Below are positions 7,487 through 49,856 of a DNA stretch of 64,000 nt, piece after piece (within the stretch, counting starts at the first letter, position 1; each line of letters opens with the position of its first letter). The notes under the pieces are model-generated. The model ran no database searches and was not told where the DNA came from. It saw only the letters and a program-made list of their open reading frames with translations. The stretch is from Alphaproteobacteria bacterium (GTDB lineage: Bacteria; Pseudomonadota; Alphaproteobacteria; UBA828). Both the position numbers and the translations under genes were made by a program. The DNA lies in assembly GCA_965243315.1 (NCBI GenBank), contig CBDEUP010000007.1:1833668-1897667 (forward strand), in the 5' to 3' direction.

Positions 7487-7546
7487 ATGAGTAGCACCAC
7501 CGAGGGCGCCCGCTACGTGCTGGCCGTCGATGTCGGCGGCACTTAA
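7487..7546 (+). pseudogene. 19-codon remnant of a hydantoinase/oxoprolinase (HyuA-type) N-terminus, truncated at the island border
   Basis: ATG ... TAA encodes MSSTTEGARYVLAVDVGGT*, the canonical start of Hydantoinase_A proteins (compare the intact hyuA at 49857: ...RFRIGVDVGGTFTDL). Confidence 0.45.
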
Positions 7547-7578
7547 ATTGACCTTGATTTTCGGATATCTGGACATTT

Positions 7579-7621
7579 GGGTCCTTGAGACGCCATGAGA
7601 GCCCTGGAGGATGATTTTCGG
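7579..7621. repeat. copy A of a ~40 bp repeated element (GGGTCCTTGAGACGCC...TGGAGGATGATTTTCGG) immediately upstream of int
   Basis: Direct comparison with copy B (9155-9188) and copy C (15179-15216); A and B share GGGTCCTTGAG-CGCC ... TGGAG-ATGATTT-C-GG. Confidence 0.5.
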
Positions 7622-7706
7622 TCTATCCTACCGCAAATAAAAGACTTTTTCCTGCGCCGATACACCTTGCAACGTGGCCATGAGTGCGCTTGAATGACCT
7701 TGAGGC

Positions 7707-7734
7707 GACATCCGATCGCTTACGCATAGCTTAC
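7707..7734. repeat. left copy of imperfect direct repeat CGCTTACGCATAGCTTACGCTTACGGCG (candidate attL core)
   Basis: Matches CCGCTTACAGTACGCTTACACCGGCC at 49829-49854 next to hyuA; both lie at the transitions between core genes and island genes. Confidence 0.3.
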
Positions 7735-7802
7735 GCTTACGGCGTGCACGATTTCGCGAACGGCCGGATGCCGATGAGAACGATTCTCAACAAGGGGGCA
7801 AT

Positions 7803-8987
7803 ATGGCCAAGCTGAAGTTCCGCACCATTTCCAAGCGTACCGTCGATGCGCTTGTCGTCGAGGACCGCGACGAGGTCTTCTGGGACGACCGCATTCCCGG
7901 CTTCGGGGTCCGGGTCTATCCGTCCGGGTCGAAGGTGTATGTCGTCCAGACCCGGCACAGGGGGAAGTCGCGCCGCGTGACGCTCGGGCGCCACGGGGTC
8001 ATGACCGCCGACGAGGCGCGCAAGAAGGCGGCCACGACCCTCAACCGCATGAGGAGCGGCGAGAACCCGGTGGAGCGGGGCTCGGTGACGGTGGCGGAGC
8101 TTGCCGCGCGCTATCTGGCGGAGCATGTCGACATGCGCTGCAAGGAGAGCACGCGGAAGGCGTACCGCAGGGCGGTCGAGCGCTTCATCGTGCCGTCCTA
8201 CGGAGATGTGGCGGTCGAGGACGTCGAGCGCGAGCACATCGACAAGCTGCACCGCGACCTCCACCACATTCCTTACCAGGCGAACCGGGCGCTGGAGATC
8301 GGGACCAGCCTGTTCAACTTCGCCGAGGAGTGGAAGCTGCGCAGCGGGGGCAACCCGTGCAAATACGTGCGCAAGTACCAGGAGAAGAAGCGCGAGCGGT
8401 TCCTGACCGAGGCGGAGTTCCGCCACCTGGGCGCGGTGCTGAACGAGATGGAGGCCGAGGGAAGGTTGCCGGTCTATCCGGCGGCGGCGATCCGGCTGCT
8501 GATGCTGACCGGGTGCCGGCGCAACGAGATCGTCGCGCTCGAATGGAAGCATGTCGATCTTGAGGCGGGCGAGTTGAAGCTCGCGGACTCGAAGACCGGT
8601 GCGCGGCTGGTGCCGCTGTCGCCGGCGGCGGCTCGGGTGCTGGCGGAGCTGCCGCGCATCGCGGGCAACCCGTGGGTCATTCCGGGCACGAAGCCCGGCA
8701 AACACCTTGCCGATCTCAACCATTACTGGGACCGGGTGCGGACGGAGGCGGACCTCGACGACGTGCGGCTTCATGACCTCCGCCACAGCTTCGCGTCCAG
8801 GGCGCTGGCGCTCGGCGAGAGCCTGTCGATGATCGGCAAGCTGCTCGGTCACAACAAGATCGAAACGACCTCGCGCTATGCGCATCTGGCGCGCGATTCG
8901 ATCAAGGCGTCGTCGGCGAAGGTGGCGGAGAGCATCGGCGCAGACATTCTCAACTCGCCGGTAACGGCGGAGACTGCCTCGGCCTGA
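7803..8987 (+). CDS. int: tyrosine-type site-specific integrase (P4-like, DUF4102 N-terminal arm-binding domain)
   Basis: 394 aa; N-terminus RTISKRTVDALVVEDRDEVFWDDRIPGFGVRVYPSGSKVYVVQTR; catalytic C-terminus HDLRHSFASRALALGESLSMIGKLLGHNKIETTSRYAHL (R..H..R..Y). Confidence 0.92.
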   Translation: MAKLKFRTISKRTVDALVVEDRDEVFWDDRIPGFGVRVYPSGSKVYVVQTRHRGKSRRVTLGRHGVMTADEARKKAATTLNRMRSGENPVERGSVTVAELAARYLAEHVDMRCKESTRKAYRRAVERFIVPSYGDVAVEDVEREHIDKLHRDLHHIPYQANRALEIGTSLFNFAEEWKLRSGGNPCKYVRKYQEKKRERFLTEAEFRHLGAVLNEMEAEGRLPVYPAAAIRLLMLTGCRRNEIVALEWKHVDLEAGELKLADSKTGARLVPLSPAAARVLAELPRIAGNPWVIPGTKPGKHLADLNHYWDRVRTEADLDDVRLHDLRHSFASRALALGESLSMIGKLLGHNKIETTSRYAHLARDSIKASSAKVAESIGADILNSPVTAETASA

Positions 8988-9330: not shown

Positions 9331-9969
9331 TTGCCGGCGGCTCCCGGAGCGGGTCCGATGATCGACCTCGACCGGCTGCGCCGGGCGCTGGTGCTGGGGG
9401 TGCTGGGGGCGGTCGCGATGGCGTTGCTGCTGCCCCCGCTGGCGCTGACGCGCCACACGGATGCCCACGACTGGTATGCCGCGCGCAAGGTAAGCGTGGC
9501 GCAGGCGCTGATCTTCGTCGGCTTCGACGAGCGCGCATTTACGGACTACCGCCTGGCGGACGGCACGCCCGTGAGGTGGACCCGCGACGGCGTGGCGACC
9601 TGGCCGGCGGCGCGGGAGTCTCGCGGTCTCATCCTCGCCGTCATCGGGGACAACATCCTGCTCGGCGCCATCGCGGGATTCGTGGTGGTGTTCACGCTGT
9701 CGGGGCTGCTGAACCTGGCGCGGCACGAAACGGCGGGGGTATGGGGGGCGGCTGCGCGGCGGCCTTCGGCAGCGGAGCGCCGGCCCGGCTTCATCGAAGG
9801 CGTGCCGCCGTATGCGGCGCACGAACCGAACCGTGTGCCGGCGAGAGCCGCCCCGGCGGGAGTTGGGCCGCTCCCGAACGCGGCAGTCCCCTCGCCCGAA
9901 CCGCCCGTCGAGGCGGAGCCCGAAGCGGCGTATGAGCCGCCCGCCCGTCCGCGCGGGCGCTGGTTCTGA
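9331..9969 (+). CDS. hypothetical membrane protein, translationally coupled to traA
   Basis: 212 aa (probable start at MIDLDRLRRALVLGVLGAVAMALLLPPLAL, ~9358); two or three hydrophobic helices, non-biased composition; stop overlaps the traA ATG (TGATGG). Confidence 0.45.
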   Translation: MPAAPGAGPMIDLDRLRRALVLGVLGAVAMALLLPPLALTRHTDAHDWYAARKVSVAQALIFVGFDERAFTDYRLADGTPVRWTRDGVATWPAARESRGLILAVIGDNILLGAIAGFVVVFTLSGLLNLARHETAGVWGAAARRPSAAERRPGFIEGVPPYAAHEPNRVPARAAPAGVGPLPNAAVPSPEPPVEAEPEAAYEPPARPRGRWF

Positions 9970-12900
9970 TGGTCGCCTCGATCGGCGCGGTCGCCTCGCC
10001 CGCCCAGGGGATCAGCTACTACGAGAAGGACTCCTACTACGCCAGGGATTCCGACGAGCACAAGGCAGCGAGCGCTTGGGCGGGCAAGGGGGCAGCGGAA
10101 CTCGGGCTCGAAGGCCCGGTGGACCCGGAGACCTTCCGCGCGGTGCTGGAGGGCGAGGTCCCGGACGGCTCGGGCAAGCGTATCGGCAAGCGCGGCAGGG
10201 AGGGCGAGATCCATCACCGCCCCGGCCGCGACCTGACCTTCAGCGCGCCCAAATCCGTGTCCCTGGCTGCGCTGGTCGGCGGCGACGAACGCATCGTCGG
10301 GGCGCACGACCGCGCGGTGGCGGGCGCGCTCGACTGGTTCGAGCGGAACGCCGCCGAGACCCGGATGCACGATCCCCAGGCTGGGCGCATGGTCCGTGCC
10401 GGCGGCCAGAAGACGGTGGTGGCCACCTTCCGGCATGACACGTCGCGGAACCTCGATCCCGCGCTGCACACCCATTCGGTGATCGCCAACATGCTGCTCG
10501 GCCCGGACGGAAAATGGCGCACCATGGCCAACGAGCGGCTCTACGGCTCGAAGATGGCGCTGGGGGCGCTCTACCGCAACGCGCTGGCGGGCGAGCTCGC
10601 GCGGCTCGGCTATTCCATAGAGAAGACCCACGCCGACGGCCGGTTCGAGATTGCCGGGGTCTCGCGCGAGATTGTGGAGGCGTTCTCGACGAGACGCGCC
10701 GAGATAGAGGCGGCGATGGAGGGCCGGGGCCTCGGCACGACGGGGGAGAACCCGCATCTCGCGCGGCGGGCGGCGCTGATGACGCGCGCGGCCAAGCGCG
10801 AGGTCGACCGCGACGCGCTGAGGGAGACCTGGGAGAAGCAGGCCGCCGCCCTCGGCTTCGATGCGAAAAGGCTGGTCGCCGAGGCGATGGAACGCCACGG
10901 GGCCGAGAAGGCGCGCGAGGCAGAACCAGGCAAGGACGGTCCCCCGGCACCGCCGCGCCAGCCGGACCTGTTCGAGCATGCCGCGAAAGCCGACCCCGCG
11001 CGCGCTGCGGTGGACTGGGCTCTGGCCCATCTCTCGGAGCGCGACGCGGTGTTCTCCACCACCGACCTGCTCGCGGCCGCGCTCGCCTTCGAGCCCGGCA
11101 CGGCCTCCATTGGCGATATCGAGCGCGCCGTGGACGGCCTCAAGCGCGAGGGCCGGCTGCACGATGCGCCTGCATTGGAGGGCGGCGGCGGATTGACCAC
11201 CGACAAGGCGCTGGCCGAGGAGCGCGAGACGGTCGCGCTGATGCGCGCCGGCGAGCGGCGCGGCAAGGCGCCGATGCGCGGCTGGATGGTGGAGCGGCAC
11301 CTGCGCAAGGGTCCGCTCACCGCCGGGCAGAAGCAGGCGGTGAAGCTGATCCTCTCCGAGAAAGACAGAACGGTGGGCGTCCAGGGCTACGCCGGCACGG
11401 GGAAGACGAAGATGCTCGCGCGCGCGAGAACGCTCGCGGAGAAGAAGGGCTGGCGCATGGTGGGCTTGGCGCCCTCGGCCTCGGCGGCGAACACGCTCAA
11501 CTCCGAATCCGGCATCGCCTCGGAGACGCTGCAACGCTTCCTCGCCCGCAACGCGGGCGTCGCCGAGGGCCGGCTGACGAAGAAAGGCGCGAAGGAAATG
11601 CGCAGCCGCTTCGCCAAGACGGTGCTGGTGGTCGACGAGGGCTCGCTCGCTTCCACCGTCCAGGCGCGCGACCTGCTGCGGATCGCCGGTGTGCTGCGTG
11701 TCCCGAAGCTGGTGCTGGTGGGCGATGCGAAGCAGCTCGACGCGGTGGACGCCGGCAAGCCCTTCGCCCAGCTCCAGGCTGCCGGCATGAAGACGGCGGT
11801 GATGGACGAGATCCTGCGCCAGCGCGACCCGGACCTGAAGGCGGCCGTCGGGGCGAGCCTCGCGGGCGAGATCGGCAAGGCGTTCGACAGGCTCGGCGAC
11901 AACGTGGCCGAAGTGAAGGCGGACAATATCGCCGGCGCGGTCGCCGCGCGCTGGCTCAAGCTCTCGCAGGATGAGCGCGAGCGCACCGGGGTGATGGCGC
12001 CGAGCCACGCGCTGCGCGAGGGGATCAACGGCCATATCCGCGAGCGCCTGGTGCGCGAGGGCCGCATCGCGGGTCCCGCCCTGGAGACCCAGCGGCTGGT
12101 CTCGAAGGGCTATACCAACGCGGAGAAGTCGCTCGCGGCCAACTACGCGGCTGGCGACGTGGTCGCCTTCCACCGCGCCTACAAGCGCATCGGCGTCGCC
12201 AAGGGCGAGGAACGCCGGGTCGCCGGCGTCGGCCGCCGGAAGAGGACCGTCCTGCTCGAAGCGCCGGGCGGCGGGACCGTCGCCTGGAAGCCGTCCGAGA
12301 TCGGCGGGCGGCAGGGGGGAACGGAGGTCTACCGCCGCGAGAGCATCGAGCTTCGCGCGGGCGACCGCATTCGCTGGACCCGCAACGACAAGGGTCTCGG
12401 GCTGGTCAACAGCGGCGCAGCCGAAGTCATGGGCATCCGCAACGGCCGCGTGACGTTCCTCCTGGAGGACGGGCGCCGGCTCACGCTCACCCCGGGCGAC
12501 CCGCAACTGCGCCATCTCGACCGCGCCTGGTGCTCGACCGTGCACGCGTTCCAGGGCCGCACCGTCGATAATGTCATTGCCGCGATGGAGGCGAATCATC
12601 CGGCGCTGACGACGCAGAAAGCCCTCTATGTCGAGATCAGCCGCGCCCGCGACCGGGCGGAGCTGGTGACCGACGACGCGCAGGCGCTCAAGGAACGGCT
12701 CGAAGCGGTCACCGGCGAGCGGATCTCGGCGCTCGAAGGCGTCGGCGAGGACGTGCGCGAGCGAGCCGAACGCGGCCGGGAAACCGCGCCGGAAGCGAAG
12801 GAACGCGAGCGCGACCGGGCCGAAGACCCTTCCACGAAGCGGATCGAAACCGCGCACGAGCGGGACGAAAAGGCCGCGCGGGAGAAGGCCGCGCCGGCCG

Positions 12901-13016
12901 GGGACAGGGCCGCGCCCTCGTCGCCGGAGCGGAACCTCGGCCGCGAGGCGCCGCAGCGCAAGGCGCCCGAGCCGCCGGCGAAGGCGAGGGTGCGCGAGTA
13001 CGATCTCGGCATGTAG
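9969..13016 (+). CDS. traA: MobF-family conjugative relaxase/helicase (TrwC/TraA-type)
   Basis: 1015 aa; N-terminal TrwC relaxase with tyrosine pair ISYYEKDSYYA and histidine triad ...DPALHTHSVIANM; central helicase with Walker A GYAGTGKT and C-terminal UvrD-like STVHAFQGRTVD. Confidence 0.92.
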   Translation: MVASIGAVASPAQGISYYEKDSYYARDSDEHKAASAWAGKGAAELGLEGPVDPETFRAVLEGEVPDGSGKRIGKRGREGEIHHRPGRDLTFSAPKSVSLAALVGGDERIVGAHDRAVAGALDWFERNAAETRMHDPQAGRMVRAGGQKTVVATFRHDTSRNLDPALHTHSVIANMLLGPDGKWRTMANERLYGSKMALGALYRNALAGELARLGYSIEKTHADGRFEIAGVSREIVEAFSTRRAEIEAAMEGRGLGTTGENPHLARRAALMTRAAKREVDRDALRETWEKQAAALGFDAKRLVAEAMERHGAEKAREAEPGKDGPPAPPRQPDLFEHAAKADPARAAVDWALAHLSERDAVFSTTDLLAAALAFEPGTASIGDIERAVDGLKREGRLHDAPALEGGGGLTTDKALAEERETVALMRAGERRGKAPMRGWMVERHLRKGPLTAGQKQAVKLILSEKDRTVGVQGYAGTGKTKMLARARTLAEKKGWRMVGLAPSASAANTLNSESGIASETLQRFLARNAGVAEGRLTKKGAKEMRSRFAKTVLVVDEGSLASTVQARDLLRIAGVLRVPKLVLVGDAKQLDAVDAGKPFAQLQAAGMKTAVMDEILRQRDPDLKAAVGASLAGEIGKAFDRLGDNVAEVKADNIAGAVAARWLKLSQDERERTGVMAPSHALREGINGHIRERLVREGRIAGPALETQRLVSKGYTNAEKSLAANYAAGDVVAFHRAYKRIGVAKGEERRVAGVGRRKRTVLLEAPGGGTVAWKPSEIGGRQGGTEVYRRESIELRAGDRIRWTRNDKGLGLVNSGAAEVMGIRNGRVTFLLEDGRRLTLTPGDPQLRHLDRAWCSTVHAFQGRTVDNVIAAMEANHPALTTQKALYVEISRARDRAELVTDDAQALKERLEAVTGERISALEGVGEDVRERAERGRETAPEAKERERDRAEDPSTKRIETAHERDEKAAREKAAPAGDRAAPSSPERNLGREAPQRKAPEPPAKARVREYDLGM

Positions 13017-13135: not shown

Positions 13136-14335
13136 ATGGCCGGGTCCGACAAGAATCGTAAGCCCCACGGTCGCACAATCCGCTGCGCCGGCGGCTACCG
13201 GGCGTTCCTTCCGGCCCCGCTTCCGCCGCCGATCGGGTGGAACGATACGCTGGCCATGGCTCTTTCAAGCGCGGACCTCGCAGTCGGACGCCTCGCCGGA
13301 GAGGGAAGCCGGTTTCCAAACCCGCATCTCTTTATCCGCTCCTTCGTGCGCCGGGAAGCGGTATTGTCGAGCCGGATCGAGGGGACGCGGACGACGCTTG
13401 CCGAATTGCTCGCCGCCGAAGCCGGTGCGAAGGACGCGGCGGACAGCGCCGACTTGCGCGAAGTGGCGAACTACGTTGCCGCGCTCGAATACGGGCTCGA
13501 CCGTCTCGACACCTTGTCGTTGTCGCTGAGGCTGATCCGCGAGATTCACGGGCGGCTCATGCGCGGGGTGCGGGGCGATTCGGCGACGCCGGGAGAGTTC
13601 CGCCGCAGTCAGAACTGGATCGGCCCGCCCGGCTGCACGCTGGACGACGCGAGCTACGTGCCGCCCCCGCCCGACGAGTTGATGGACTGCCTCGACGCCC
13701 TGGAGCGGTTTCTTCACGACGACAGCCTTCCGGTGCTGGTGCATGCGGCGCTCGCGCACGCGCAATTTGAGGCGATCCATCCGTTTCTCGACGGCAACGG
13801 CCGGGTCGGCCGGCTGTTGATCACGCTGCTGCTGGCCGAGCGCGGCATCCTGCCCTCGCCGCTGCTCTATCTGAGCGCGTATTTCGAGGAGACCCGCGAA
13901 GATTACTATGCGCATTTGCTCGCGATTACGGAGGCGGGCGCGTGGGAAGACTGGCTCGTCTACTTCCTGCGCGGTGTCCGGTTGCAGGCGGACGACGCCC
14001 TCGCGCGCATCGAACACCTCGACACTTTGCACGAGTCCTGGCGCGACGATCTCGGCGACGCGCTGTCGCCTCGGCTCAACGAGGTCCTGAGCCTGTTCGT
14101 GGAAAGCCCGTTCTGGACCGTCGGCGAGATCGGCAAGACGCTCGGTATTGCCTATACCACCGCGCGGCGCGCGGTCGACCGGCTGGAAGAGGCCGGTATC
14201 GTGTCGCCGTCCGGGCCGTCGAGACGCAACCGGGTCTACTGCGCGCGCGCCGCTCTGGAGGCGCTCAGCGATCCGCTGCAACTGGCAGAGCCCTCCGGTC
14301 CCGGTGCTCGCGCAGGATCGCCGGACGGTCCTTGA
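13136..14335 (+). CDS. Fic/Doc family protein (class II Fic, putative AMP-transferase) with C-terminal winged-helix domain
   Basis: 399 aa; Fic active-site motif HPFLDGNGRVGR; N-terminal inhibitory-helix motif SSRIEG ([S/T]xxxE[G/N]); conserved N-terminus YRAFLPAPLPPP. Confidence 0.9.
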   Translation: MAGSDKNRKPHGRTIRCAGGYRAFLPAPLPPPIGWNDTLAMALSSADLAVGRLAGEGSRFPNPHLFIRSFVRREAVLSSRIEGTRTTLAELLAAEAGAKDAADSADLREVANYVAALEYGLDRLDTLSLSLRLIREIHGRLMRGVRGDSATPGEFRRSQNWIGPPGCTLDDASYVPPPPDELMDCLDALERFLHDDSLPVLVHAALAHAQFEAIHPFLDGNGRVGRLLITLLLAERGILPSPLLYLSAYFEETREDYYAHLLAITEAGAWEDWLVYFLRGVRLQADDALARIEHLDTLHESWRDDLGDALSPRLNEVLSLFVESPFWTVGEIGKTLGIAYTTARRAVDRLEEAGIVSPSGPSRRNRVYCARAALEALSDPLQLAEPSGPGARAGSPDGP

Positions 14336-15891: not shown

Positions 15892-16922
15892 GTGCTCGTC
15901 GTCACGGTCGGCGCGATGACTCCGGGCGCGTTCATCGCCAAGTGGCGGGCGTCGGAGTTGAAGGAAAGCTCGGCGTCGCACGAACACTTCATCGACCTGT
16001 GCCGCCTGCTCGGCGAGCCGACGCCGGCGGAGGCCGACCCGGCGGGCGAGCGGTACTGCTTCGAGCGTGGCGCGCGGAAGGACACCGGCGGCGACGGCTG
16101 GGCCGACGTATGGAAGCGCGGCTTCTTCGCATGGGAGTACAAGGGCAAACGCGCGGACCTCGACGCGGCGTTCAATCAACTGCGGCAGTACGCGCTCGCG
16201 CTGGAGAATCCGCCGCTGCTGATCGTCTCGGACATGGCGCGGTTCCGCGTCCGCACCAACTGGACGAACAGCGTGAGCGTGACGCACGAGTTCACGCTCG
16301 ACGACCTCGCCGACGGCGCGACCCGCGACAAGCTCAAGTGGGCGATGTCGGACCCGGAGCGGCTGCGGCCCGGCGAGACGCGGCAGACGGTGACGGAGCG
16401 CGCGGCGGCAACCTTCGCGGAGCTTGCCCAAGGGTTGCGGGATCGGGGCCACGACCCGCAGACGGTGGCGCACTTCGTCAACCGTCTGGTGTTCTGCATG
16501 TTCGCCGAGGATGTCGGCCTGCTGCCCGGCGACATGTTCACCCGGATGCTGGAACAGGCATGCAGGCGGCCGGACGAGTTCGCTGAGCTTGCCCGCGACC
16601 TGTTCGGGGCAATGTCTGTCGGAGGCCGCGTCGGATTCGAGTCCGTGGCCTGGTTCAACGGCGGGCTGTTTGACGACGACACGGCGTTGCCGCTCGACCG
16701 GCAAGGAATCGAGACGGCGCTCAAGGCGGCGGCGCTCGACTGGTCGGAGATCGACCCGTCAATCCTCGGCACACTGTTCGAGCGCGGCCTCGACCCGGAC
16801 AAGCGTTCGCAGTTGGGCGCGCACTACACCGACCGCGACAAGATCATGCGGATCGTCGAGCCGGTGATCGTTCGGCCCCTGCTCGCGGAATGGGAGACGG
16901 CGAAGGCCGGGATCGCGGCTAC
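15892..16922 (+). CDS. MmeI-family type IIL restriction-modification enzyme, exon 1 (N-terminal PD-(D/E)XK endonuclease domain and linker)
   Basis: N-terminal FIAKWRASELKESSASHEHFIDLCRLLGEPTP...DVWKRGFFAWEYKGKRADLDAAFNQLRQYALALENPPLLIVSDMARFRV parallels the MmeI nuclease domain; LFERGLDPDKRSQLGAHYTDRDKIMRIVEPVI is the MmeI/PglX-family helical motif. The reading frame is interrupted after ...ETAKAGIAAT (codon AC|) by a group II intron starting GTGCG at 16923. Confidence 0.75.
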
Positions 16923-38260: not shown

Positions 38261-38286
38261 CTTCGCCTTGCGTCCGCGCACCGGCC

Positions 38287-44200: not shown

Positions 44201-47200
44201 GTCCGTACTCGGTGACCTTCCCCGCGGGCGCCAAACGCGCGGCGTTCGACGTGGCGACGGTCGCGGATTCCACCGCCGAGGGCGCGGAGACGTTCTCGCT
44301 GCGGATACCGGCCGCGGGCCTCCCGGCGGGGATGGGCCTTGCCGCGGCGGGCGCCGCCACCCCGCCCGAGGCGACCGTCACCGTCTCCGAGAGCGCGCCG
44401 CCGAGCGTGCCCGAGGCGGCGTTCGCCGCGGGCGAATCGGACGCGGGCGAGGCCGCGGGCACCCGCACCGTGACGGTGCACCTCGTACCGCCGCCGACCT
44501 CGCCGCTCGCGCTCGCCTACACCGTGGGCGGCACCGCGACGGCGGGCGCGGACTTCACCATCGCGGGCTCTGGCATCGTCGCGGTGCCCGCGCACGCGAC
44601 CGGCGTCGACATCGAGGTGGCGGTGCTCGACGACACCGCGCAGGAGTCCGACGAGACGCTCGTCCTGACGCTCGCCGCCGGCGCGGGCTACACGGTGGGC
44701 GCCCCGGGCGTGCACACGCTCACCCTTGCCGACGACGACGCGCCGCCGCCCGCGCCCGTGGTCTCGGTCGCGGGCACGCCGGGCGCCGAGGGCGGCGCGC
44801 CGGCGCGCTTCCTCCTCACCGCGCGCCCGCGGCCCGCGGGCAGCGTCGCGGTGACGGTCGCGGTGACGCAGAGCGGCGGCTATGCCGGCCCGGGCGAGAC
44901 CGGCACGCGCACCGTGACGATGGACGCGTCGGGCTCGGCGCTGCTCGACGTCGCGATTGCCGACGACGCCATCGACGAGCCGGACGGCAGCTTCACCGCG
45001 ACGGTGCGCCCCGGCACGGGCTACGCGGTGCACGCAAGCGCTGCCGCCGCCACCGTGGCGGTGGCCGACGACGACCCGACCCGGGTGACGCTTGCGGGCT
45101 CCGCGGACGCAATCCCCGAGACCGGGGGGACGAAGACGCTGACGGTGCGCCTCGCCCGGGCGCTGGTCGCACCGGAGACGCTCGCGGTGCCGCTCGTGTT
45201 CGCAGGCGAGGCGGTGCGGGGCCTCGACTACACGCTGAGCTGCGGCAACGACACCGGCGCGGCCTGCCGCGACCTTGCGGGCGAGGCGCCGCGCATCGAG
45301 TTCAGCGCCGGCGGGCGCACCGCGACGGTGACGCTCGCCGCCGCCGGCGACGCCATCAACGAGGGCGCGGGCGAGACGGTGACGGTGGCGCTCGGTGCGC
45401 TCGACGCGAGCTCGGGCACCGGCCTCGGCGGGGGTGCGGCGGGCGCAGGCAGCGTCGCGTTCACCATTACCGACGACGACGCGGGCCCGGAGCCGGGTAT
45501 TGTGCTGCCCGATACGGACGTGGCCGTGGTCGAGGGCGCGACGGCGAGCTACGAGCTCAAGCTCGCCTCCGACCCCGGCGACGGCGCCACGGTGCGGGTG
45601 AGCGTCACCTCCGCGGACACCGGCGCGGTGACGGTGAGCGACACCCAGTCGGGTGTGAACGGCACGCAGGACTGGCTCGACTTCACCGGCGGCGCCGCCG
45701 GCACCTGGAGCACCGCCCAGACGGTGACCGTCGCCGGCGTGCACGACGCCGACTCCGCCCACGAGGCGGACGTGGCGCTCGCCCACGCCGCGAGCGTGCA
45801 GGCGGGCACGAGCGCGCCCTATGCGGGGCTTGCGAGCCGGACGCTCCACGTCGACGTGACCGAGGACGACGCGGCCGAGGTCGGCTTCAAGCAGGACGCC
45901 CACGCGGTGGACGAGGGCGACGACGCGACGCTCACGCTCACGTTCACGCGCGCGCTAGGGAGCGACGTGACCGTGCGGGTCCTGCTGACCGGTCTCGGGG
46001 CGACCGGCTCGGGCGTCGACTTCGACTCGACCCCGCGCTCGATTGCCGTCCCGGCGGGGACGGTGGAGCAGGCGTTCACCGTCTCGACCGTCGAGGACGA
46101 GAAGTTCGAGGGCTACGAGACCTTCCAGGCGACGATTCTCGCCCTCGGCCTCCCCGACGACCTGGCGCTCGCCGCCGCGCACCGCTCGACCGTCACCATC
46201 GTCGACGACGAGGCCTCGGTCTCGCCCGCGCTCGACGCCGGCATCCACGAGGGCGAGACGCTGACCTACACCGTCTCGGGAATCGACCCCGCGCATGCGA
46301 GCGTGACGCTCCTGGCCGCCACCTCGAGCACCGCGACCCGCGACGTCGACGGGACGTGGGACGCGGGCGAGGACTACCGCCTGCTTCGCCCCGGCGACCC
46401 CGAGGACACGGTGCTCGGCGCGACCGACACCCTCACCCCCTCGGGCGGGGCGGTGACGTTCCGCATCAAGACGCGCGCCGACACCGACGACACCGAGGGC
46501 GACGAGACGGTGGTGTTCGAGATGGAGCTTCCGGGTGTCTTGGGGGAGGCGGCGCTCGGGACGCTGGCGCTGAAGAACGGCCCGCGCCTCGAGGCTGGGG
46601 TCGCGCTCTCCGCGCAAACCCTCGCCCTCGACGAGGGGACGACCGGCACCTACACCGTGGCGCTCACCCTCGCGCCCGCCCCGGGCGAGACGGTGACCGT
46701 CACCGCGGCGAGCCCCGATGCGGGCGCGGTGCGGGTGCACGCCGCCGGCGGCTCCCCGGGGGCGCGCGCGACGCTGACCTTCACCGACGCGACCTGGAGC
46801 GCCGCGCAGACGGTGACGGTGACCGCGCTCTCCGACTTCGATGCGAGCGACGAGCGCGTCGACATCGCGCACGCGGTCGAGGGCACGGGCGCGTACGCGG
46901 ACGTGACCGCGCCGGCGGTGGCGGTCACGGTGGACGACGACGAGGTGCCCGTCGTGGTCTCGGTCGCCGCGGGCGCGGCGGTGGATGAGGGCGGGGCCGC
47001 GACCTTCACGGTGACGGCGACGCCTGCGCCGCCCCGCACGCTTCGCATCGCGCTCGCGCTCGGCGAGACCGGCGCGTTCCTCGCCCCGGGCGCCACGCTG
47101 CCTGCGGTGCACCTCAGCCCCACCCGGGCGTCGCAGAGCGTCTCGCTCGCGACCGAGGACGACACGGTCAACGAGGCGCACGGCGCGGTGACGCTCACCG

Positions 47201-49554
47201 TGGAGGCGGGGACCGGCTACGTCGTGGCGGCCGCGCCGGACCACACCGCGAGCGTCGAGGTCCGCGACGACGACGGGGCGGGCATGCCGGTGGTGAGCAT
47301 CGCGAGCGCGCAAAGCCCCGGCGCGACCGCGTTCGAGGGCGACGCGCTCGTCTTCACGGTGCGCGCCGACCCCGCGCCCGCGGCCGAGCTCGCCGTCACC
47401 GTCGGCGTCGCCGAGAGCGCGGGCAGCGCCTTCGTCGTCCCCGGCGGAACGGGGAACAAGACGGTGACGATTGCGGCGAACGCGCGCACGGCGACGCTGA
47501 GTGTCGCGACCGTCCAGGACACCGACGAGGAGGACCCGGCGTTCGCGACGGTGACGGCGACGGTGGCGCACGCGCCGGGCTACACCGTCGCCGATGCGCC
47601 GCGCGACAGCGCGCAGGCGACGGTCTCCGACGACGACGGGCTGCCCGGGGTCACCATCCACGACGCGCAAGCCGAAGAGGGCGACCCGATGTTCTTCCGG
47701 GTGACGCTCTCGAAGGCGGCGGCCCACACCGTCGAGGTGAAGTGGGCGACGAGGTTCGAGTACGACGCCAACAAGTGGGAGACCGGCAGCGCCCGCTACA
47801 CCCTCGACTACACGAGCGCCAACGGCATCCTGCGCTTCGCCCCGCGCGAGACCGTGCGCGAGATCCTGATCTACACCGTCGACGACGCCCACGACGAGGG
47901 CGACGAGACGTTCGAGGTGGAGCTCTCCGACCCTGTGGGGGCGGTGATAGCCGACGGCCTCGCGACGGGGACGATCACGAACGACGACCCGCTGCCCGCG
48001 GCCTGGCTCGCGCGCTTCGGGCGCACGGTGGCGGAGCAGGCGCTCGAGGGCGTCGCGGACCGCATCGCCGCCCCGCGCAAGCCGGGGATGCAGGGCACGC
48101 TCGCCGGGCAGGCGCTGAGCCCCTCGACAGGCTCGGGACAGGCGCTCGACCCGGCGGCTTCCGGCCAGGCGGCGGGCGGAACGCCCGGCACGGCGGCGCT
48201 CGCGCTCGCCGACGTGGCGCGCCGCTTCGGCGACGGCCCGTTCGATCCGTTCGGTCATGGCGCCGCGCCGGGCCCCGGCGCGGCGCAGGCGCAATCGCGC
48301 ACGATGACCGCGAGCGAGGCGCTGCTCGGGTCGAGCTTCACGCTGACCGGCGAGACGGACGGCGCGGGCGGCACCATGGCCTTCTGGGGCCGGGCGGCGC
48401 AGTCGAGCTTCGACGGCGTCGAGCGGGGCGCCGGCACCGACATCGCCCTCGACGGCACGGTGACCACCGGCATGCTGGGCGCGGACTATGCGCGCGGGCC
48501 CTGGCTGGTGGGGCTTGCGCTGACCCTGAGTTCGTCCGAGGGCAGCTATGCCGCCACCGGCGATCGGGATCCCTGTCCCGGTACGGACGCGGACCGGTGC
48601 GACGGCGCGGTGCGCGCCGGCGACGGCACGCTGGAGGCGTCGCTGACGGCGGCGGTGCCCTATGCGTCGTGGCGGGCCTCGGAGCGCCTCAAGCTCTGGG
48701 GCGCGCTCGGCTACGGCGCCGGCGAGGTGACGCTGAAGACGGGCATGGGCGAGCGCCTCGGCGCGGACATCGACTGGACCATGGCGGCGGCCGGCCTGCG
48801 GGGCGACGTGATCGCGCTGCCCATGGAAGGCTCCGGCCTTGCCCTCGCGGTGACCTCGGACGCCATGTGGGCGCGCACGGCCTCGGAGAAGACACGGGAC
48901 CTTGCGGCGTCGGAGTCCGACGTGACCCGGCTCAGGCTCGGGCTGGAGGGAAGCTACCGCGTCGCCCTCGAAGAGGGCGGCAGCCTGACGCCGAAGCTGG
49001 AGGTGGGCGCGCGCCATGACGGGGGCGACGCCGAGACCGGGTTCGGGGTCGAGCTCGGCGGCGGCATCGCCTGGGTCGACCCGGCGCTCGGGCTCTCGCT
49101 CGATCTCTCGGGCCGCACGCTGATCGCGCACGGCAACGACGACCTGGAGGACCATGGCTTCGCGGCTTCGCTCGCCTGGGACCCGGCCCCGGCGACGAAG
49201 CGGGGTCCGTCGCTGACGCTCACCCAGGACTGGGGCGGGCGGGCCGAGGGCGGCCTCGACGCGCTGTTCGCGCCGGACCCGCTGGAGGACCGGACGGGCA
49301 ATGGCGAGCCGACCTCCCGCTGGGCCATGGAGGCCGCATACGGCCTGCCGGCCTTCGGCGGGCGCTGGACCGGCAGCCCGCATGCCGGGCTGGGGCTCGC
49401 GACCGGCACGCGCGACTACACGATCGGCTGGCGGCTAGCGCCGGAAGCGGCCAACGCGCCCGACCTGTCGCTCGGTCTCAAGGCCACCCGCCGGGAGAGC
49501 GACACGGCCGAGCCCGAGCATAGCGTCGGGGTCGAAGTCCGTGCCAGATGGTGA
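38287..49554 (+). CDS. giant secreted surface protein (~3.7k aa): N-terminal signal peptide, >25 Calx-beta domains interleaved with a ~150 aa repeated module, C-terminal autotransporter-like outer-membrane beta-barrel
   Basis: Open frame 38122-49554. Plausible starts are ATG 38287 or GTG 38452 (MWRGLLAALLALPLAAGLAAGAQA|QSTV signal peptide). Calx-beta signatures recur, e.g. VTVTSGTAVRGEDF...LVEGDETFTVAIDTASLP...ATVTLFDDD. C-terminal 280 aa have alternating-hydrophobic beta-strands and end ...SVGVEVRARW (terminal aromatic typical of OMP barrels). Confidence 0.8.
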   Translation: MSAPSGRRLLPWRPLRRGASPPESSAAGHAASRPARTSSERSASSSSPARRGPRRVWRGLLAALLALPLAAGLAAGAQAQSTVSFAQSSYVVDEGEDATLTLQLSPARTVATEVRVTFVDLTTSPKDYDESAQTVTIPANATSATVTVGTEDDQFIEIKESARAHIDSGSLPSGVTVGTQGTTDIVITDNAVPALVFTPKALTVAEGGSASYEVALSHRPHHASASITVAISGQADTDLTLDKTSLTFGHSNWNQAQTVTVSAAADTDRTDDAATLDHAASSGVSKFNGVTGSLAVTVQENLPVIGVSAATSDFTEGDASKVAFSVTASGGETGDYPVSVTFGTSGAATQGTDYTLPASVTLSADGASVAVPILVADDDTVEGEETAAITIPAGSGYRPDKDAATHTMTIADNDHSISYRVRGTPVEGSTSTVIGRGNGIINFQQPTPQLASGETMTIPLSFADGTLGTDFTLAVGDHDFASASVDATTGVVSVTGPTSSAATFVVLLLASEDTDTTDDTVTVSVGSGATAGGGALVATRRGNGQLTMLDNDVSQSLTVEFTQSGFSVNEDRTVQPVARLSETARTDIDIPVTVTSGTATRGVDFESAAARTLTVFAGGTTGTVSIPMIDDDLTEGDETFTIAIDTASLPTGVTAKPGGHLQATVTILDNDETPTLSIAAPADADEGDGLASTRLFTVGLTRAVAGAVRYEVCFSGTAKSAADAHRSQELVDYRVQRDGAGVAAECLEDLTLAAGATASGQAVGIKVLGDTFAEPDETVVATLEMKAAPDGVLLGTSVATHVIGNDDGTEATLTLAPAPGAVTALVEGDAPAHFVIDGTGATPGAEYYVQLALGGEAKNGTDYRLEIRIDGQWHQLSRNLRRSIFSVFELPTRLRLFALADTAPEGDERAVLTLADAQGYAPGTPSEVTFVIGNGPPAVTVEAVEAAVTEGAPARFTVRLSEAQVADFDVAVRIAEDGDGDFVAGDDEGVQSFTVPAGETEAVLEVATDDDTTHEPGTAVTATVEPGAGYTVGTPASAAVAVADDGDLELSHGIFPATAGEGSTLGAARFYLRPQRALAAGETVTVPLAFTGGTLGTDFTLALDAASAQAFGSASLAAGTVTLTGPADRGRLLNVNLFAAEDDDADDEVVTLGFGAMSTSAGGDVGLMRFTSDRIKLLDNDVPQSLTVEFTRDALTIFEDIGLLEPILRLSEVARRDVAVKVTLTDGTAVRGADYESAATRTVTFPAGKEVSGLQVKILIDNEVEGDETFMVAIDTDSLPAGVTAKPGGNAEATVTILNDDTTASFAAAASSASEGAGAHTVTVNFTPPAASFTSLRYTVGGTARAGEDFTIAGSGSLSVPIDATSVDIEVAVVDDAVPEYAETVVLTLTDGGRRIALGATTVHILTIADDDAGTPPNPVRLSVSDAGAVAEGGTVTVTATLDHANATGGALAIPLAVRAAGTTAAPGDYTVASSIAIADGATAGTTDLAATDDDAVEAPETVVLALGAALPEGVAAGTPGHVTVTIADDDLGLTYGVRDWSATEGEPTSHARLFVRPQWALGAGETLTVPLTFTGGTLGTDFTLALEAASAARFAAATLAAGTVTLTGPARADAAVYVRLFAAEDDDAGDETVTLGVGTVASSTGAAVAASRQGDGRMTLLDNDGDLELRYGVLPATAAEGSTTALRQLWLTPRRALAAGEAVTVPLVFEGGTLGTDFTLAPGVHGFGSMVLAAGTLTLTGPANRGATGFVNLFALEDDDADDEVVTLGFGAASSSTGAAVTHTRFGDGRITLLDNDAPQSLTVEFASDAFGVYEHNGPAEPVLRLSEVPRRDVAVRVTVTSGTAVRGEDFLSAATRTATFPAGGATTTNVPMTLPNDALVEGDETFTVAIDTASLPANVTAKPGGNVRATVTLFDDDTATVGFARGALAVREGDAARPVLVLSKAFAADVTVGVEDAAGTATAPGDYAAGPYSVTFPAGAKRAAFDVATVADSTAEGAETFSLRIPAAGLPAGMGLAAAGAATPPEATVTVSESAPPSVPEAAFAAGESDAGEAAGTRTVTVHLVPPPTSPLALAYTVGGTATAGADFTIAGSGIVAVPAHATGVDIEVAVLDDTAQESDETLVLTLAAGAGYTVGAPGVHTLTLADDDAPPPAPVVSVAGTPGAEGGAPARFLLTARPRPAGSVAVTVAVTQSGGYAGPGETGTRTVTMDASGSALLDVAIADDAIDEPDGSFTATVRPGTGYAVHASAAAATVAVADDDPTRVTLAGSADAIPETGGTKTLTVRLARALVAPETLAVPLVFAGEAVRGLDYTLSCGNDTGAACRDLAGEAPRIEFSAGGRTATVTLAAAGDAINEGAGETVTVALGALDASSGTGLGGGAAGAGSVAFTITDDDAGPEPGIVLPDTDVAVVEGATASYELKLASDPGDGATVRVSVTSADTGAVTVSDTQSGVNGTQDWLDFTGGAAGTWSTAQTVTVAGVHDADSAHEADVALAHAASVQAGTSAPYAGLASRTLHVDVTEDDAAEVGFKQDAHAVDEGDDATLTLTFTRALGSDVTVRVLLTGLGATGSGVDFDSTPRSIAVPAGTVEQAFTVSTVEDEKFEGYETFQATILALGLPDDLALAAAHRSTVTIVDDEASVSPALDAGIHEGETLTYTVSGIDPAHASVTLLAATSSTATRDVDGTWDAGEDYRLLRPGDPEDTVLGATDTLTPSGGAVTFRIKTRADTDDTEGDETVVFEMELPGVLGEAALGTLALKNGPRLEAGVALSAQTLALDEGTTGTYTVALTLAPAPGETVTVTAASPDAGAVRVHAAGGSPGARATLTFTDATWSAAQTVTVTALSDFDASDERVDIAHAVEGTGAYADVTAPAVAVTVDDDEVPVVVSVAAGAAVDEGGAATFTVTATPAPPRTLRIALALGETGAFLAPGATLPAVHLSPTRASQSVSLATEDDTVNEAHGAVTLTVEAGTGYVVAAAPDHTASVEVRDDDGAGMPVVSIASAQSPGATAFEGDALVFTVRADPAPAAELAVTVGVAESAGSAFVVPGGTGNKTVTIAANARTATLSVATVQDTDEEDPAFATVTATVAHAPGYTVADAPRDSAQATVSDDDGLPGVTIHDAQAEEGDPMFFRVTLSKAAAHTVEVKWATRFEYDANKWETGSARYTLDYTSANGILRFAPRETVREILIYTVDDAHDEGDETFEVELSDPVGAVIADGLATGTITNDDPLPAAWLARFGRTVAEQALEGVADRIAAPRKPGMQGTLAGQALSPSTGSGQALDPAASGQAAGGTPGTAALALADVARRFGDGPFDPFGHGAAPGPGAAQAQSRTMTASEALLGSSFTLTGETDGAGGTMAFWGRAAQSSFDGVERGAGTDIALDGTVTTGMLGADYARGPWLVGLALTLSSSEGSYAATGDRDPCPGTDADRCDGAVRAGDGTLEASLTAAVPYASWRASERLKLWGALGYGAGEVTLKTGMGERLGADIDWTMAAAGLRGDVIALPMEGSGLALAVTSDAMWARTASEKTRDLAASESDVTRLRLGLEGSYRVALEEGGSLTPKLEVGARHDGGDAETGFGVELGGGIAWVDPALGLSLDLSGRTLIAHGNDDLEDHGFAASLAWDPAPATKRGPSLTLTQDWGGRAEGGLDALFAPDPLEDRTGNGEPTSRWAMEAAYGLPAFGGRWTGSPHAGLGLATGTRDYTIGWRLAPEAANAPDLSLGLKATRRESDTAEPEHSVGVEVRARW

Positions 49555-49567
49555 ACGACGCGAGTCC

Positions 49568-49712
49568 GATGCGCGATGCCGTGGAGACGGGCGACGGGAG
49601 CCGGGCATGGCTCTTCCTGCGCCGCGTCCCGGAATACGAGGCGGCATGGCGGGCGCGGCCACCGACGGCAGCGCCGGGCGTCATGCCCGGTGACGGTTGG
49701 CAAACCGGCTGA
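49568..49712 (+). pseudogene. N-terminal fragment of a DUF2285/DUF6499-type protein (a family usually found at the ends of alphaproteobacterial ICEs)
   Basis: MRDAVETGDGSRAWLFLRRVPEYEAAWRAR... resembles the conserved W.(F/W)LRRNP.Y...W N-terminal motif of that family, then terminates after ~47 codons. Family assignment is from memory. Confidence 0.3.
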
Positions 49713-49828
49713 TAGAGTGCGCCGGGAATCGCGGTCGGCGGCGGGGACTTCCGGGGCCGGGCCGGAGGGGCCGTCGCCCGCCGCCCTCTTGCACCCCTGG
49801 ACCCCGATGGACTGAAGTTGGAGTGAAT

Positions 49829-49854
49829 CCGCTTACAGTACGCTTACACCGGCC
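49829..49854. repeat. right copy of imperfect direct repeat CCGCTTACAGTACGCTTACACCGGCC (candidate attR core)
   Basis: See 7707-7734. Confidence 0.3.
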
Positions 49855-49856
49855 CG

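What the first reader, a model, noticed from the sequence alone, without database searches (positions are those of the whole stretch)
7487..49856. About 42 kb mosaic integrated mobilizable island splitting a coxMSL-like / hyuAB neighbourhood, not at a tRNA
Housekeeping genes end at 7388 (molybdenum hydroxylase large subunit) and resume at 49857 (hyuA). The interval carries three tyrosine integrases, a MobF relaxase, a serine recombinase, a transposon, an RM system and a giant adhesin-like gene. The left int gene is adjacent to the border. Both borders carry CGCTTAC-containing imperfect direct repeats (7707-7734 and 49829-49854), and no tRNA/tmRNA 3' end is present at either junction. A 19-codon hydantoinase N-terminus (7487-7546) at the left border suggests the island landed in, or deleted part of, a hyuA paralog.
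Basis: partly seen in the sequence, partly recalled or inferred. Interest (0 to 1): 0.55.

Follow-up and report, generated by a model that had tools for sequence, protein, structure and literature searches.

The report
Mobile island inserted inside hydantoinase gene
The 42 kb stretch is a real mobilizable genomic island, but it sits inside the first codons of a hydantoinase (hyuA) gene, supplies a replacement gene start, belongs to a family that targets many hyuA copies, and here joins pieces of two different hyuA genes.

Summary
The island and its listed genes are real, but the borders and att sites were misplaced. Comparison with relatives that lack the island puts the junctions at 7542/7543 and 49958/49959. 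Both lie inside the codons for the conserved VDVGGT motif at the 5' end of hyuA-family genes. The only shared junction sequence is an 8 bp core, GGCGGCAC. The right island end supplies a replacement in-frame hyuA start.

The CGCTTAC repeats are not the att core. They lie 110-200 bp inside each end and are conserved across the element family, so they are probably integrase arm-binding sites.

About 20 related integrase loci and 4 distinct related right ends show the same junction design in different hyuA paralogs. The mechanism resembles dusA-specific islands, which also replace the 5' end of their target.

The two flanks come from different paralogs. The left stub is hyuA_X, found next to coxL in relatives. 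The right gene body is hyuA_Y. In one related genome X and Y are inverted and megabases apart. This points to an inversion between the two sites, or to an assembly mis-join across two island copies.

The element has a relaxase but no detected transfer machinery. It is mosaic, with a group II intron, a transposon and two extra integrases.

The parts
7487..7543 (+). Displaced native 5' end (19 codons) of hyuA paralog X, left behind at attL.
   Evidence: Translation is MSSTTEGARYVLAVDVGGT*. It is collinear with L005 and L006, where coxL is followed by an intact 688-aa hyuA_X. All X orthologs start MSSxxxGARYVLAVDVGGTFTDV.
7535..7542 (+). attL copy of the 8 bp crossover core GGCGGCAC.
   Evidence: This is the last stretch collinear with L005. 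It is identical to 49959-49966. The pattern GTNGAYGTNGGNGGNAC occurs only at the two junctions, against 0.01 expected.
7543..7802 (+). Left arm of the element (the P' arm of attP). It starts with the conserved TTAAATTGA...ATTTTCGGATATCTGGACA and carries three GCTTAC repeats at 7718-7740. The first two are 11 bp apart and the third follows 6 bp later.
   Evidence: An alignment of about 20 related loci shows that element homology starts exactly after GGCGGCAC. The motif CCGGTCGCTTRCG-N5-GCTTACGCTTACGG is nearly invariant while neighbouring sequence varies.
7803..8987 (+). int1, the border tyrosine integrase with an N-terminal arm-DNA-binding domain.
   Evidence: Pfam matches are Arm-DNA-bind_3, Phage_int_SAM_3 and Phage_integrase. 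The catalytic motifs TGCRRNE, HDLRHS, LLGH and SRYAH are readable in the translation. Relatives of 73-97% identity sit at the same kind of junction.
9969..13016 (+). MobF/TrwC relaxase-helicase.
   Evidence: Pfam TrwC E=5e-84 plus AAA_30. NCBIfam MobF scores 286.9 bits against a cutoff of 100. It forms a backbone with int1 that is 85-93% identical in L007-L011, L015, L032 and L033.
13136..14335 (+). Fic/DOC family protein (cargo).
   Evidence: Pfam Fic_N plus Fic.
15892..20670 (+). MmeI-like type IIL restriction-modification gene, interrupted by a group II intron.
   Evidence: MmeI_N and MmeI_hel lie in 15892-17043. MmeI_Mtase and MmeI_TRD lie in 18412-20670. The homologous gene in L009 is uninterrupted across the window's intron site. 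Removing 16923-18839 gives one 953-aa ORF.
16923..18839 (+). Group II intron (5' GTGCG ... AT 3') with its reverse transcriptase/maturase ORF at 17096-18754.
   Evidence: Rfam RF02005 at 16958-17181, 176 bits. NCBIfam group_II_RT_mat scores 353 bits against a cutoff of 300.
21700..24085 (-). Two adjacent extra tyrosine integrase genes: int2 at 21700-22926 and int3 at 22895-24085.
   Evidence: Pfam matches. They are 41% and 36% identical to int1. They lie inside a block (about 15.4-24.9 kb) that is absent from the backbone of L033.
24932..27037 (-). Backbone module: YspA/SLOG protein (24932-25858), DUF4326 (26090-26323) and SSB (26570-27037).
   Evidence: Pfam matches. Homologous segments lie next to int1-type integrases in L033, L021, L025 and L027.
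29017..32340 (+). Inserted block: DUF5372 (29017-29322), HTH protein (29505-29963) and large serine recombinase (30262-32340).
   Evidence: Pfam matches. The block is absent from the related element L077, which joins the equivalents of 28961 and 32378.
33614..38069 (+). Transposon-like insertion bounded by 38-nt inverted repeats. It carries an HTH gene, an rve transposase (34317-35921), and AAA_22 and AAA_25 ATPase ORFs.
   Evidence: Inverted repeat I5, 87% complementary. Pfam and NCBIfam matches. No target-site duplication was identified.
38122..49554 (+). Giant Calx-beta repeat protein gene (cargo). The likely start is the ATG at 38287.
   Evidence: Pfam Calx-beta E=2.4e-102 over 8 stretches. 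Internal repeats. Nothing homologous to it was found in L077, where the equivalents of 33192 and 49817 are only 1.4 kb apart.
49817..49958 (+). Right arm of the element (the P arm of attP). It has two GCTTAC repeats 11 bp apart (49831-49847), an AT-rich stretch, and the surrogate hyuA 5' coding sequence ending ...AQGRFRIGVDVGG. The likely start is GTG at 49887. ATG at 49857 is the alternative.
   Evidence: It is not homologous to the island-free hyuA_Y upstream regions. It is homologous to right ends of related elements fused to other hyuA genes in L071-L077. This includes bases outside the search pattern (TGGAATGAATCC...AGTAY) and an ATG in L077 at the position of 49887.
49959..49966 (+). attR copy of the core GGCGGCAC.
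   Evidence: It is the first stretch collinear with L002, L004 and L001. Three island-specific third-position differences (GGG, GTG, GTG against GGC, GTC, GTC) lie immediately to its left.
49959..52013 (+). Body of hyuA paralog Y, now read in frame from the island-supplied 5' end.
   Evidence: It is 95% identical in protein to P0001, whose native start is MKLIGVDVGGTFTD. The hybrid ORF gives a full-length Pfam Hydant_A_N match from residue 29. The frame is continuous.

Best explanation
The region 7543-49958 (42.4 kb) is an integrative mobilizable element of a previously undescribed family. Its border tyrosine integrase, Int1, recombines at an 8 bp core, GGCGGCAC. The core lies in the codons for the ATP-binding DxGGT motif at the 5' end of hyuA (hydantoinase/oxoprolinase A) genes.

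Shown here:
- Both junctions fall in this core.
- The element's right end carries an in-frame mimic of a hyuA N-terminus (...GRFRIGVDVGG), so the interrupted gene keeps a complete reading frame. The native 19-codon start is stranded at the left end.
- The same architecture recurs in about 20 related elements, in many different hyuA paralogs.
- The element backbone is int1, relaxase, YspA, SSB and the 28.5-33.2 kb segments.
- Later insertions or cargo are the MmeI gene with a group II intron, int2/int3, a serine-recombinase block, a transposon and the giant Calx-beta gene.

Inferred:
- The conserved GCTTAC repeats in both arms are arm-type sites for the N-terminal domain of Int1.
- The hybrid hyuA is expressed from island DNA.
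- The element transfers by hijacking a conjugative system through its MobF relaxase.

Also inferred: the left stub is from hyuA_X and the right body from hyuA_Y, and these genes are inverted and megabases apart in a relative. The present arrangement therefore most likely arose by an inversion between the two paralogous sites. The inversion would come either from homologous recombination between two inverted island copies or from Int1 acting on attL/attR and a second attB.
For: Junction mapping against island-free relatives:
- Left flank 1-7542 is 90.4% identical to L005, which reads mutS-coxMSL-hyuA_X-hyuB_X.
- Right flank from 49959 is 90% identical to L002, which reads hyuA_Y-hyuB_Y-racemase...priA.
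- The motif GTNGAYGTNGGNGGNAC occurs only at the two junctions.

Family evidence, left ends:
- 64 integrase loci were found, about 25 of them at 73% identity or above.
- The upstream alignment shows element homology starting right after the core.
- The unrelated upstream DNA encodes hyuA-type N-termini ending xD(V/I)GGT in 16 of 20 loci.

Family evidence, right ends:
- 7 metagenome loci (4 distinct) have conserved right arms fused in frame to full-length hyuA homologs that are 30-39% identical to HyuA_Y.

Other support:
- Backbone continuity links int1-type ends to internal segments and to the right end (L033, L021, L077).
- Int1 has an arm-binding domain.
- In a 4.06 Mb relative contig, X lies on the + strand at 0.95 Mb and Y on the - strand at 3.74 Mb.
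- Multi-copy genomes exist, including two inverted copies 120 kb apart on one contig.
Against: - No excised circle or empty site from this same strain is available.
- No reciprocal junction (Y N-terminus joined to X body) was found among X homologs.
- No sigma-70 consensus promoter was detected in the right arm, so expression of the hybrid gene is unproven.
- No excisionase gene was recognised.
- 4 of 20 related loci (L008, L009, L011, L013) have degenerate or non-hyuA sequences at the core.
- The right-end loci were retrieved with a pattern that already required the core and GGTFTD codons. Only the conservation outside that pattern is independent evidence.
- The X/Y orientation comes from one relative with only ~88% protein identity.
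Confidence: 0.8

Rival explanations
1. The chimeric flanks are an assembly artefact. The genome has two similar island copies, one in hyuA_X and one in hyuA_Y. The assembler joined the left part of one copy to the right part of the other. The site specificity would still hold, but there would be no inversion.
For: Relatives are all metagenome-assembled genomes. Several carry 2-3 copies of this element whose 5 kb int-relaxase backbones are 87-93% identical to the window's. The window's genome itself is not in the protein collection, so nothing can be cross-checked.
Against: No discontinuity was seen inside the island. The backbone order matches single elements elsewhere (L033, L021, L077). Copies compared across loci differ by about 7-13%, a level long-read assemblers usually resolve.
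Confidence: 0.2
2. The island inserted into the intergenic space of a coxMSL-hyuAB neighbourhood, with the CGCTTAC-containing repeats (7707-7734 and 49829-49854) as the att core.
For: The repeats are real, over-represented and in direct orientation at both ends.
Against: Flank collinearity ends 175 bp left of the left repeat cluster and resumes 110 bp right of the right cluster. Both clusters are conserved element-internal sequence in about 20 loci with unrelated flanks. coxL and hyuA_Y are not neighbours in any relative examined.
Confidence: 0.03
3. The 42 kb region is a tandem or accreted array of two or three independent integrative elements, one per tyrosine integrase, rather than one element with insertions.
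For: There are three tyrosine integrases and a serine recombinase. GC content varies from 0.53 to 0.78. The int2/int3 block is absent from L033.
Against: There is no internal hyuA-type junction or third core motif. Backbone segments on both sides of int2/int3 co-occur with int1-type integrases elsewhere, and with the int1-type right end in L077. No flanking repeats were found for a nested int2/int3 element.
Confidence: 0.15
4. The X/Y junction arose by deletion of the chromosome between two directly oriented hyuA sites, not by inversion.
For: Recombination between direct repeats or two direct island copies would give the same local picture.
Against: In the one relative with both genes on a single contig, they are in opposite orientation and 1.3-2.8 Mb apart. 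A deletion would therefore be both impossible by simple recombination and lethal.
Confidence: 0.05

Closest known systems
dusA-specific genomic islands and their dusA-associated integrases (Farrugia et al. 2015, PMC4482086)
   Same: A tyrosine integrase sits at the island border. Integration is inside the 5' end of a conserved protein-coding gene. The island supplies a new in-frame 5' end, including a replacement first beta-strand. Cargo is highly variable and only the integrase end is common. Paralogs (dusB, dusC) are used occasionally.
   Different: The target here is the DxGGT-coding segment of hyuA-family genes, not dusA. The identity block is 8 bp, against 21 bp semi-conserved repeats for dusA islands. 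Use of different paralogs is the rule here rather than the exception. Homology of Int1 to the dusA integrases was not tested.
SXT/R391 integrative conjugative elements in prfC (own knowledge: Hochhut and Waldor 1999)
   Same: They integrate site-specifically into the 5' end of a protein-coding gene and provide a new promoter and N-terminal coding sequence for it.
   Different: SXT is self-transmissible, with a full type IV secretion system, and has a single-copy target. This element has only a MobF relaxase and has many possible targets per genome.
Lambda/P4-type heterobivalent tyrosine integrases (own knowledge)
   Same: Int1 has an N-terminal arm-binding domain (PF13356) plus the catalytic domain. 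Repeated short motifs lie at helical-turn spacing in both arms, 110-200 bp from the core.
   Different: Binding of Int1 to the GCTTAC repeats is inferred only. No excisionase or host-factor sites were identified.
Integrative mobilizable elements (IMEs) that carry a relaxase but no mating-pair apparatus (own knowledge)
   Same: The element has an integrase, a relaxase and SSB or establishment genes, and no type IV secretion or coupling protein was detected.
   Different: The oriT and the helper conjugative element are unknown. The relaxase is a large MobF/TrwC relaxase-helicase, which is more typical of plasmids and ICEs.

Membership tests
Tyrosine-recombinase integrative element (genomic island / IME) | An intact tyrosine integrase gene next to one border. 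| tested here: met
   int1 at 7803-8987 starts 261 bp from the core. Pfam Phage_integrase E=2e-25. The R, K, HxxR, H and Y motifs are readable in the translation.
Tyrosine-recombinase integrative element (genomic island / IME) | A short identical sequence (core) at both junctions, defined by comparison with empty sites. | tested here: met
   GGCGGCAC at 7535-7542 and 49959-49966. Empty X and Y sites in L005/L006 and in L002/L004/L001 carry the same core.
Tyrosine-recombinase integrative element (genomic island / IME) | Excision to a circular form and re-integration. | not testable with these tools
   No reads are available. A search for attP-type joints in viral contigs found nothing.
Integrative mobilizable element (as opposed to ICE) | A relaxase is present, while the mating-pair (type IV secretion) and coupling-protein genes are absent. 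| tested here: met
   MobF relaxase. No VirB4, VirD4, TraG or TraD-type Pfam hit in any ORF scanned across 7.5-50 kb. Several ORFs remain without any match.
Integrative mobilizable element (as opposed to ICE) | A functional oriT and mobilization by a helper element. | not tested
   No oriT search was made and no helper is known.
Gene-restoring 5'-end-targeting islands (dusA-GEI / SXT-prfC type) | Insertion inside the 5' coding region of a conserved gene. | tested here: met
   The junction is at codon 19 of hyuA_X and codon ~11 of native hyuA_Y. The same holds in 16 of 20 related left ends and in 4 distinct right ends.
Gene-restoring 5'-end-targeting islands (dusA-GEI / SXT-prfC type) | The island end supplies an in-frame replacement 5' coding sequence. 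| tested here: met
   The continuous ORF 49857-52013 gives a full Hydant_A_N match. Surrogate starts are conserved in L071-L077.
Gene-restoring 5'-end-targeting islands (dusA-GEI / SXT-prfC type) | The island supplies a promoter and the hybrid gene is expressed. | tested here: inconclusive
   There is an AT-rich stretch upstream of the surrogate start, but no sigma-70 consensus match. No expression data are available.
dusA-associated integrase family (strict membership) | The target is dusA (or dusB/dusC), and the integrase clusters with the dusA integrases. | tested here: not met
   The target is hyuA. Integrase phylogeny against the dusA integrases was not done. The element works like a dusA island but is not filed as one.
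Heterobivalent (arm-binding) integrase system | An N-terminal arm-binding domain, plus repeated arm-type sites in both att arms. | tested here: met
   PF13356 E=2.2e-13. GCTTAC repeats (3 left, 2 right, with 11 bp spacing) are conserved across the family while flanking bases vary. Protein binding itself cannot be tested here.

The most novel reading that the evidence does not exclude
Int1-family elements use a catalytic-motif-coding sequence shared by a whole paralogous gene family as their attB. A single genome therefore offers many landing sites and accumulates several copies. Recombination between copies, or Int1 acting on attL/attR and a second paralog, would then drive megabase-scale chromosomal inversions. 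It would also swap N-termini and promoters among hyuA paralogs. The window would capture one such event: hyuA_X stub, island, hyuA_Y body.
Probability: 0.35. Interest if true: 0.6.

Novelty: new member of a known kind. Interest (0 to 1): 0.45.

Why it matters
This adds a new protein-gene target to the short list of islands that integrate into the 5' end of a gene and rebuild it. The other known cases are dusA islands and SXT in prfC.

The target here is the codons of a conserved ATP-binding motif shared by many paralogs. The same integrase can therefore land at many places in one genome. That explains multi-copy islands in these Defluviicoccus-like Alphaproteobacteria. It also provides ready-made sites for large rearrangements.

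In practice, the GGCGGCAC-TTAAAT junction and the GCTTAC arm motif give exact island borders. Automated island finders that look for tRNA targets or long direct repeats would miss them. Annotators would also call the hybrid hyuA an ordinary gene.

Tried and rejected
- Exact-protein look-up of the window's HyuB found nothing, so the source genome is not in the collection.
- I reconstructed a 'native' HyuA from the left stub plus the right body. Orthologs of the right gene instead start MKLIGVDVGG. This showed that the two flanks come from different genes.
- I looked for right ends within 10 kb of related integrases. There was no hyuA body and no right-arm motif, so those islands are longer than the fetched flanks.
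- Searches for attP-type and attR-type joints in viral contigs gave 0 hits.
- I looked among HyuA_X homologs for a reciprocal hybrid (Y N-terminus on an X body) or an island-type N-terminus. None was found.
- A sigma-70 promoter and terminator scan of both arms found nothing.
- Pfam scans of about 20 small or uncertain ORFs, looking for an excisionase, found none.
- No target-site duplication could be read at the transposon ends.
- Literature searches for a hyuA or hydantoinase integration site found no such report. The library is limited to open-access papers.
- GC skew was considered as a test of the inversion. I rejected it as uninformative because both flanks have the same weak sign.
Full report
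**What is in the window**

The DNA is about 70% G+C and has no tRNA or tmRNA gene.

The left flank reads:
- mutS (907-3639)
- coxM-, coxS- and coxL-like genes (3703-7388)

The right flank reads:
- hyuA (ORF 49857-52013)
- hyuB (52016-53791)
- an MFS transporter and a hydantoin racemase
- then redoxin, transaldolase and priA

- tyrosine integrase int1 (7803-8987), with an arm-DNA-binding domain
- TrwC/MobF relaxase (9969-13016)
- Fic protein
- MmeI-like restriction-modification gene
- two further tyrosine integrases on the minus strand (21700-24085)
- YspA/SLOG, DUF4326 and SSB genes
- large serine recombinase (30262-32340)
- a unit with rve transposase and AAA genes, bounded by 38-nt inverted repeats (33614-38069)
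- a 3,810-codon Calx-beta repeat ORF (38122-49554)

The gene inventory in the finding is correct.

**Where the island really begins and ends**

The left stub at 7487-7543 translates to MSSTTEGARYVLAVDVGGT followed by a stop. AT-rich DNA begins immediately after it.

Relatives with 96% and 91% identical CoxL (L005, L006) carry mutS, coxMSL and then an intact 688-aa hyuA, followed by hyuB and a luciferase-like gene. The window is collinear with L005 at 90% nucleotide identity up to base 7542, ending ...GTCGATGTCGGCGGCAC. It diverges from there.

On the right, close homologs of the hyuA product (95%, 91% and 88% identity) all begin MKLIGVDVGGTFTD. DNA homology of the window to those loci (L002, L004, L001) begins only at 49959. 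The 23 bases before it (ATCGGGGTGGACGTG...) imitate the native sequence. They differ at three third-codon positions where all relatives agree.

The degenerate motif GTNGAYGTNGGNGGNAC occurs exactly twice in 64 kb, at the two junctions, against 0.01 expected. The only identical block shared by the two junctions is GGCGGCAC, at 7535-7542 and 49959-49966. On each side, the base adjoining the core is island-type. Strand exchange must therefore have taken place inside these 8 bp.

The island is thus 7543-49958. The first ~34 codons of the 'hyuA' ORF are island DNA. They supply a surrogate N-terminus...AQGRFRIGVDVGG, in frame with the body of the gene. The hybrid protein still gives a complete Hydant_A_N domain match.

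**The CGCTTAC repeats**

They are real. They lie 176-198 bp inside the left end (three GCTTAC copies) and 112-128 bp inside the right end (two copies, 11 bp apart).

I aligned the 420 bp upstream of about 20 related integrase genes. The block CCGGTCGCTTRCG-N5-GCTTACGCTTACGG is almost invariant, while neighbouring bases vary. The right-arm version, TGAATCCGCTTACAGTAYGCTTAC, is likewise conserved in related right ends.

Int1 has an arm-binding domain. The simplest reading is that the repeats are arm-type integrase sites, not the crossover core. Binding is inferred, not shown.

**A family of hyuA-targeting elements**

A scan of one genome per species found 64 integrase relatives. About 25 are 73-97% identical to Int1. 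Nearly all come from Defluviicoccus-like, Rhodospirillales or other alphaproteobacterial metagenome-assembled genomes. Several genomes have two or three copies.

In these loci, homology between elements starts exactly after the core, with TTAAAT.GA....ATTTTCGGATATCTGGACA. More distant members have variants of this sequence.

The DNA upstream is unrelated from locus to locus. In 16 of 20 cases it nevertheless encodes a short ORF with a start codon 8-20 codons upstream, ending (G/A)(I/V/A)D(V/I)GGT. Examples are MSYTIGIDVGGT, MSDRQSGSRIGIDIGGT, MPRARLAADVGGT and MNDVSRAAVRVACDVGGT.

The closest relative of the window's island is L007 (Int 97%). It sits in a third paralog, in the same genome whose hyuA_X is intact (L006).

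Four loci are exceptions. L008 and L011 lie downstream of another integrase-like gene. L009 lies in an IS-transposase-like ORF. L013 has a degenerate core.

For right ends, I ran a pattern search of metagenome contigs (GCTTAC-N5-GCTTAC, 96-126 nt, GGCGGCACNTTYACNGA). It returned 7 loci, 4 of them distinct. The pattern fixed part of the match. Even so, the alignment shows further conserved bases outside it. It also shows an AT-rich stretch and a surrogate start, such as MSDSQGRYMVGVDIGGT, fused to full-length hyuA homologs only 30-39% identical to HyuA_Y.

L077 has an ATG where the window has GTG at 49887. This makes 49887 the likely start of the hybrid gene.

**One element or several**

- The int1-relaxase segment (7.5-13.0 kb) is 85-93% identical in eight other loci.
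- L033 continues with homologs of 14.5-15.4, 24.9-25.8 and 26.7-27.1 kb.
- L021 links an int1-type integrase to 24.9-27.2 and 32.7-33.2 kb.
- L077 links 28.5-29.0 and 32.4-33.2 kb directly to the right arm.

The backbone therefore spans the whole island. Four parts are insertions or cargo: the MmeI/int2/int3 block, the serine-recombinase block (about 29.0-32.4 kb), the transposon and the giant gene. No third hyuA-type junction exists inside the island. The 'mosaic' label is right, but it is one element with nested additions.

I detected no type IV secretion or coupling protein, so it is best called an integrative mobilizable element.

**The two flanks do not belong together**

In relatives, coxL is followed by hyuA_X and hyuB_X. 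hyuA_Y is preceded by pyrimidine-synthesis and FMN-dehydrogenase genes or other genes, never by coxL.

The window contains neither the body of X, nor hyuB_X, nor the native start of Y.

One 4.06 Mb contig of a relative carries both genes. X is on the + strand at 0.95 Mb and Y on the - strand at 3.74 Mb. Recombination between sites in inverted orientation inverts the intervening DNA. It would produce exactly coxL, X stub, island, surrogate start, Y body, hyuB_Y. It would also produce a reciprocal junction that lies outside this window.

The exchange could have been homologous recombination between two inverted island copies. Such pairs exist: two inverted copies lie 120 kb apart on CBDEUQ contig_3. 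It could also have been Int1 acting on an att site and a second attB. A mis-join by the assembler across two island copies would look the same. I cannot exclude that here and give it about 0.2.

**Comparison with known systems**

The mechanism matches the dusA-specific genomic islands. Those integrate in the 5' end of dusA, replace the 5' end with island sequence that preserves the first beta-strand, and occasionally use dusB or dusC (PMC4482086). From my own knowledge, it also matches SXT/R391 in prfC.

It differs in target, in having an 8 bp identity block, and in routinely using different members of a paralogous family.

Open-access literature searches found no report of hyuA or hydantoinase genes as an integration site.

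I file it as a new member of a known kind. It is moderately interesting for mobile-element specialists and for genome annotation, and not a new principle.

**Verdict**

The central claims have confidence of about 0.8: a hyuA 5'-end-specific integrative mobilizable element, core GGCGGCAC, a surrogate N-terminus, and arm repeats mistaken for att sites. The inversion explanation for the chimeric flanks has a confidence of about 0.5.

Noticed in passing
window 16923-18839 (within 15892-20670): A group II intron (Rfam RF02005; reverse transcriptase/maturase ORF at 17096-18754; ends GTGCG...AT) interrupts the MmeI-like restriction-modification gene. Removing it restores a single 953-aa ORF. The homologous gene in L009 has no intron.
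   Followed up: yes
window 38157-38260: A perfect pentanucleotide tandem repeat, (GCCGA) x 20.8, lies just upstream of the likely ATG (38287) of the giant Calx-beta gene, inside the long upstream extension of its ORF. It could act as a slipped-strand switch for this gene.
   Followed up: partly
window 53775-55257: The MFS transporter gene between hyuB_Y and the racemase has lower GC and a strong negative AT skew. It is absent from the otherwise collinear relatives L002 and L001, so it is a small separate insertion in the right flank.
   Followed up: partly
window 35600-37740: Inside the transposon, an AAA_22 ORF (35600-36754) and an AAA_25 domain (about 36778-37296, in the frame of ORF 35722-37740) overlap in different frames. 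A high-GC3 ORF also lies on the opposite strand (36190-37407). This may be a frameshifted or miscalled gene.
   Followed up: no
L008 8445-9577, L011 8313-9445, L025-L027: Several related elements have a second, ~69% similar integrase-like gene directly upstream of the int1-type gene, in the same orientation. In L008 and L011 the junction core is degenerate (GAAAGCGGCAC, GAATGCGGCAC) and not in a hyuA gene. The window's int2/int3 pair is also a tandem.
   Followed up: partly
L007 5318-10000: In the closest relative of the island (Int 97%), about 4.4 kb is inserted between the arm-repeat block and the integrase gene. L009 and L011 have a smaller insertion at the same place.
   Followed up: no
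L009 about 9490-9606: One related element abuts a truncated ORF that reads like the C-terminus of an IS-type transposase (...GVESFWAMFKRGIAGTYHKLSPKH). Its core is CGAAGCAC. This suggests an off-target or rearranged insertion.
   Followed up: no
window 49590-49700: A short ORF fragment after the giant gene reads ...SRAWLFLRRVPEYEAAWRARPP. From memory it resembles the N-terminal motif of regulators found on alphaproteobacterial conjugative elements. It had no Pfam match.
   Followed up: partly
window 20001-22000: The lowest-GC patch of the island (0.53-0.58) covers a 317-aa ORF (20706-21659) with no family match. It lies between the MmeI gene and int2.
   Followed up: no
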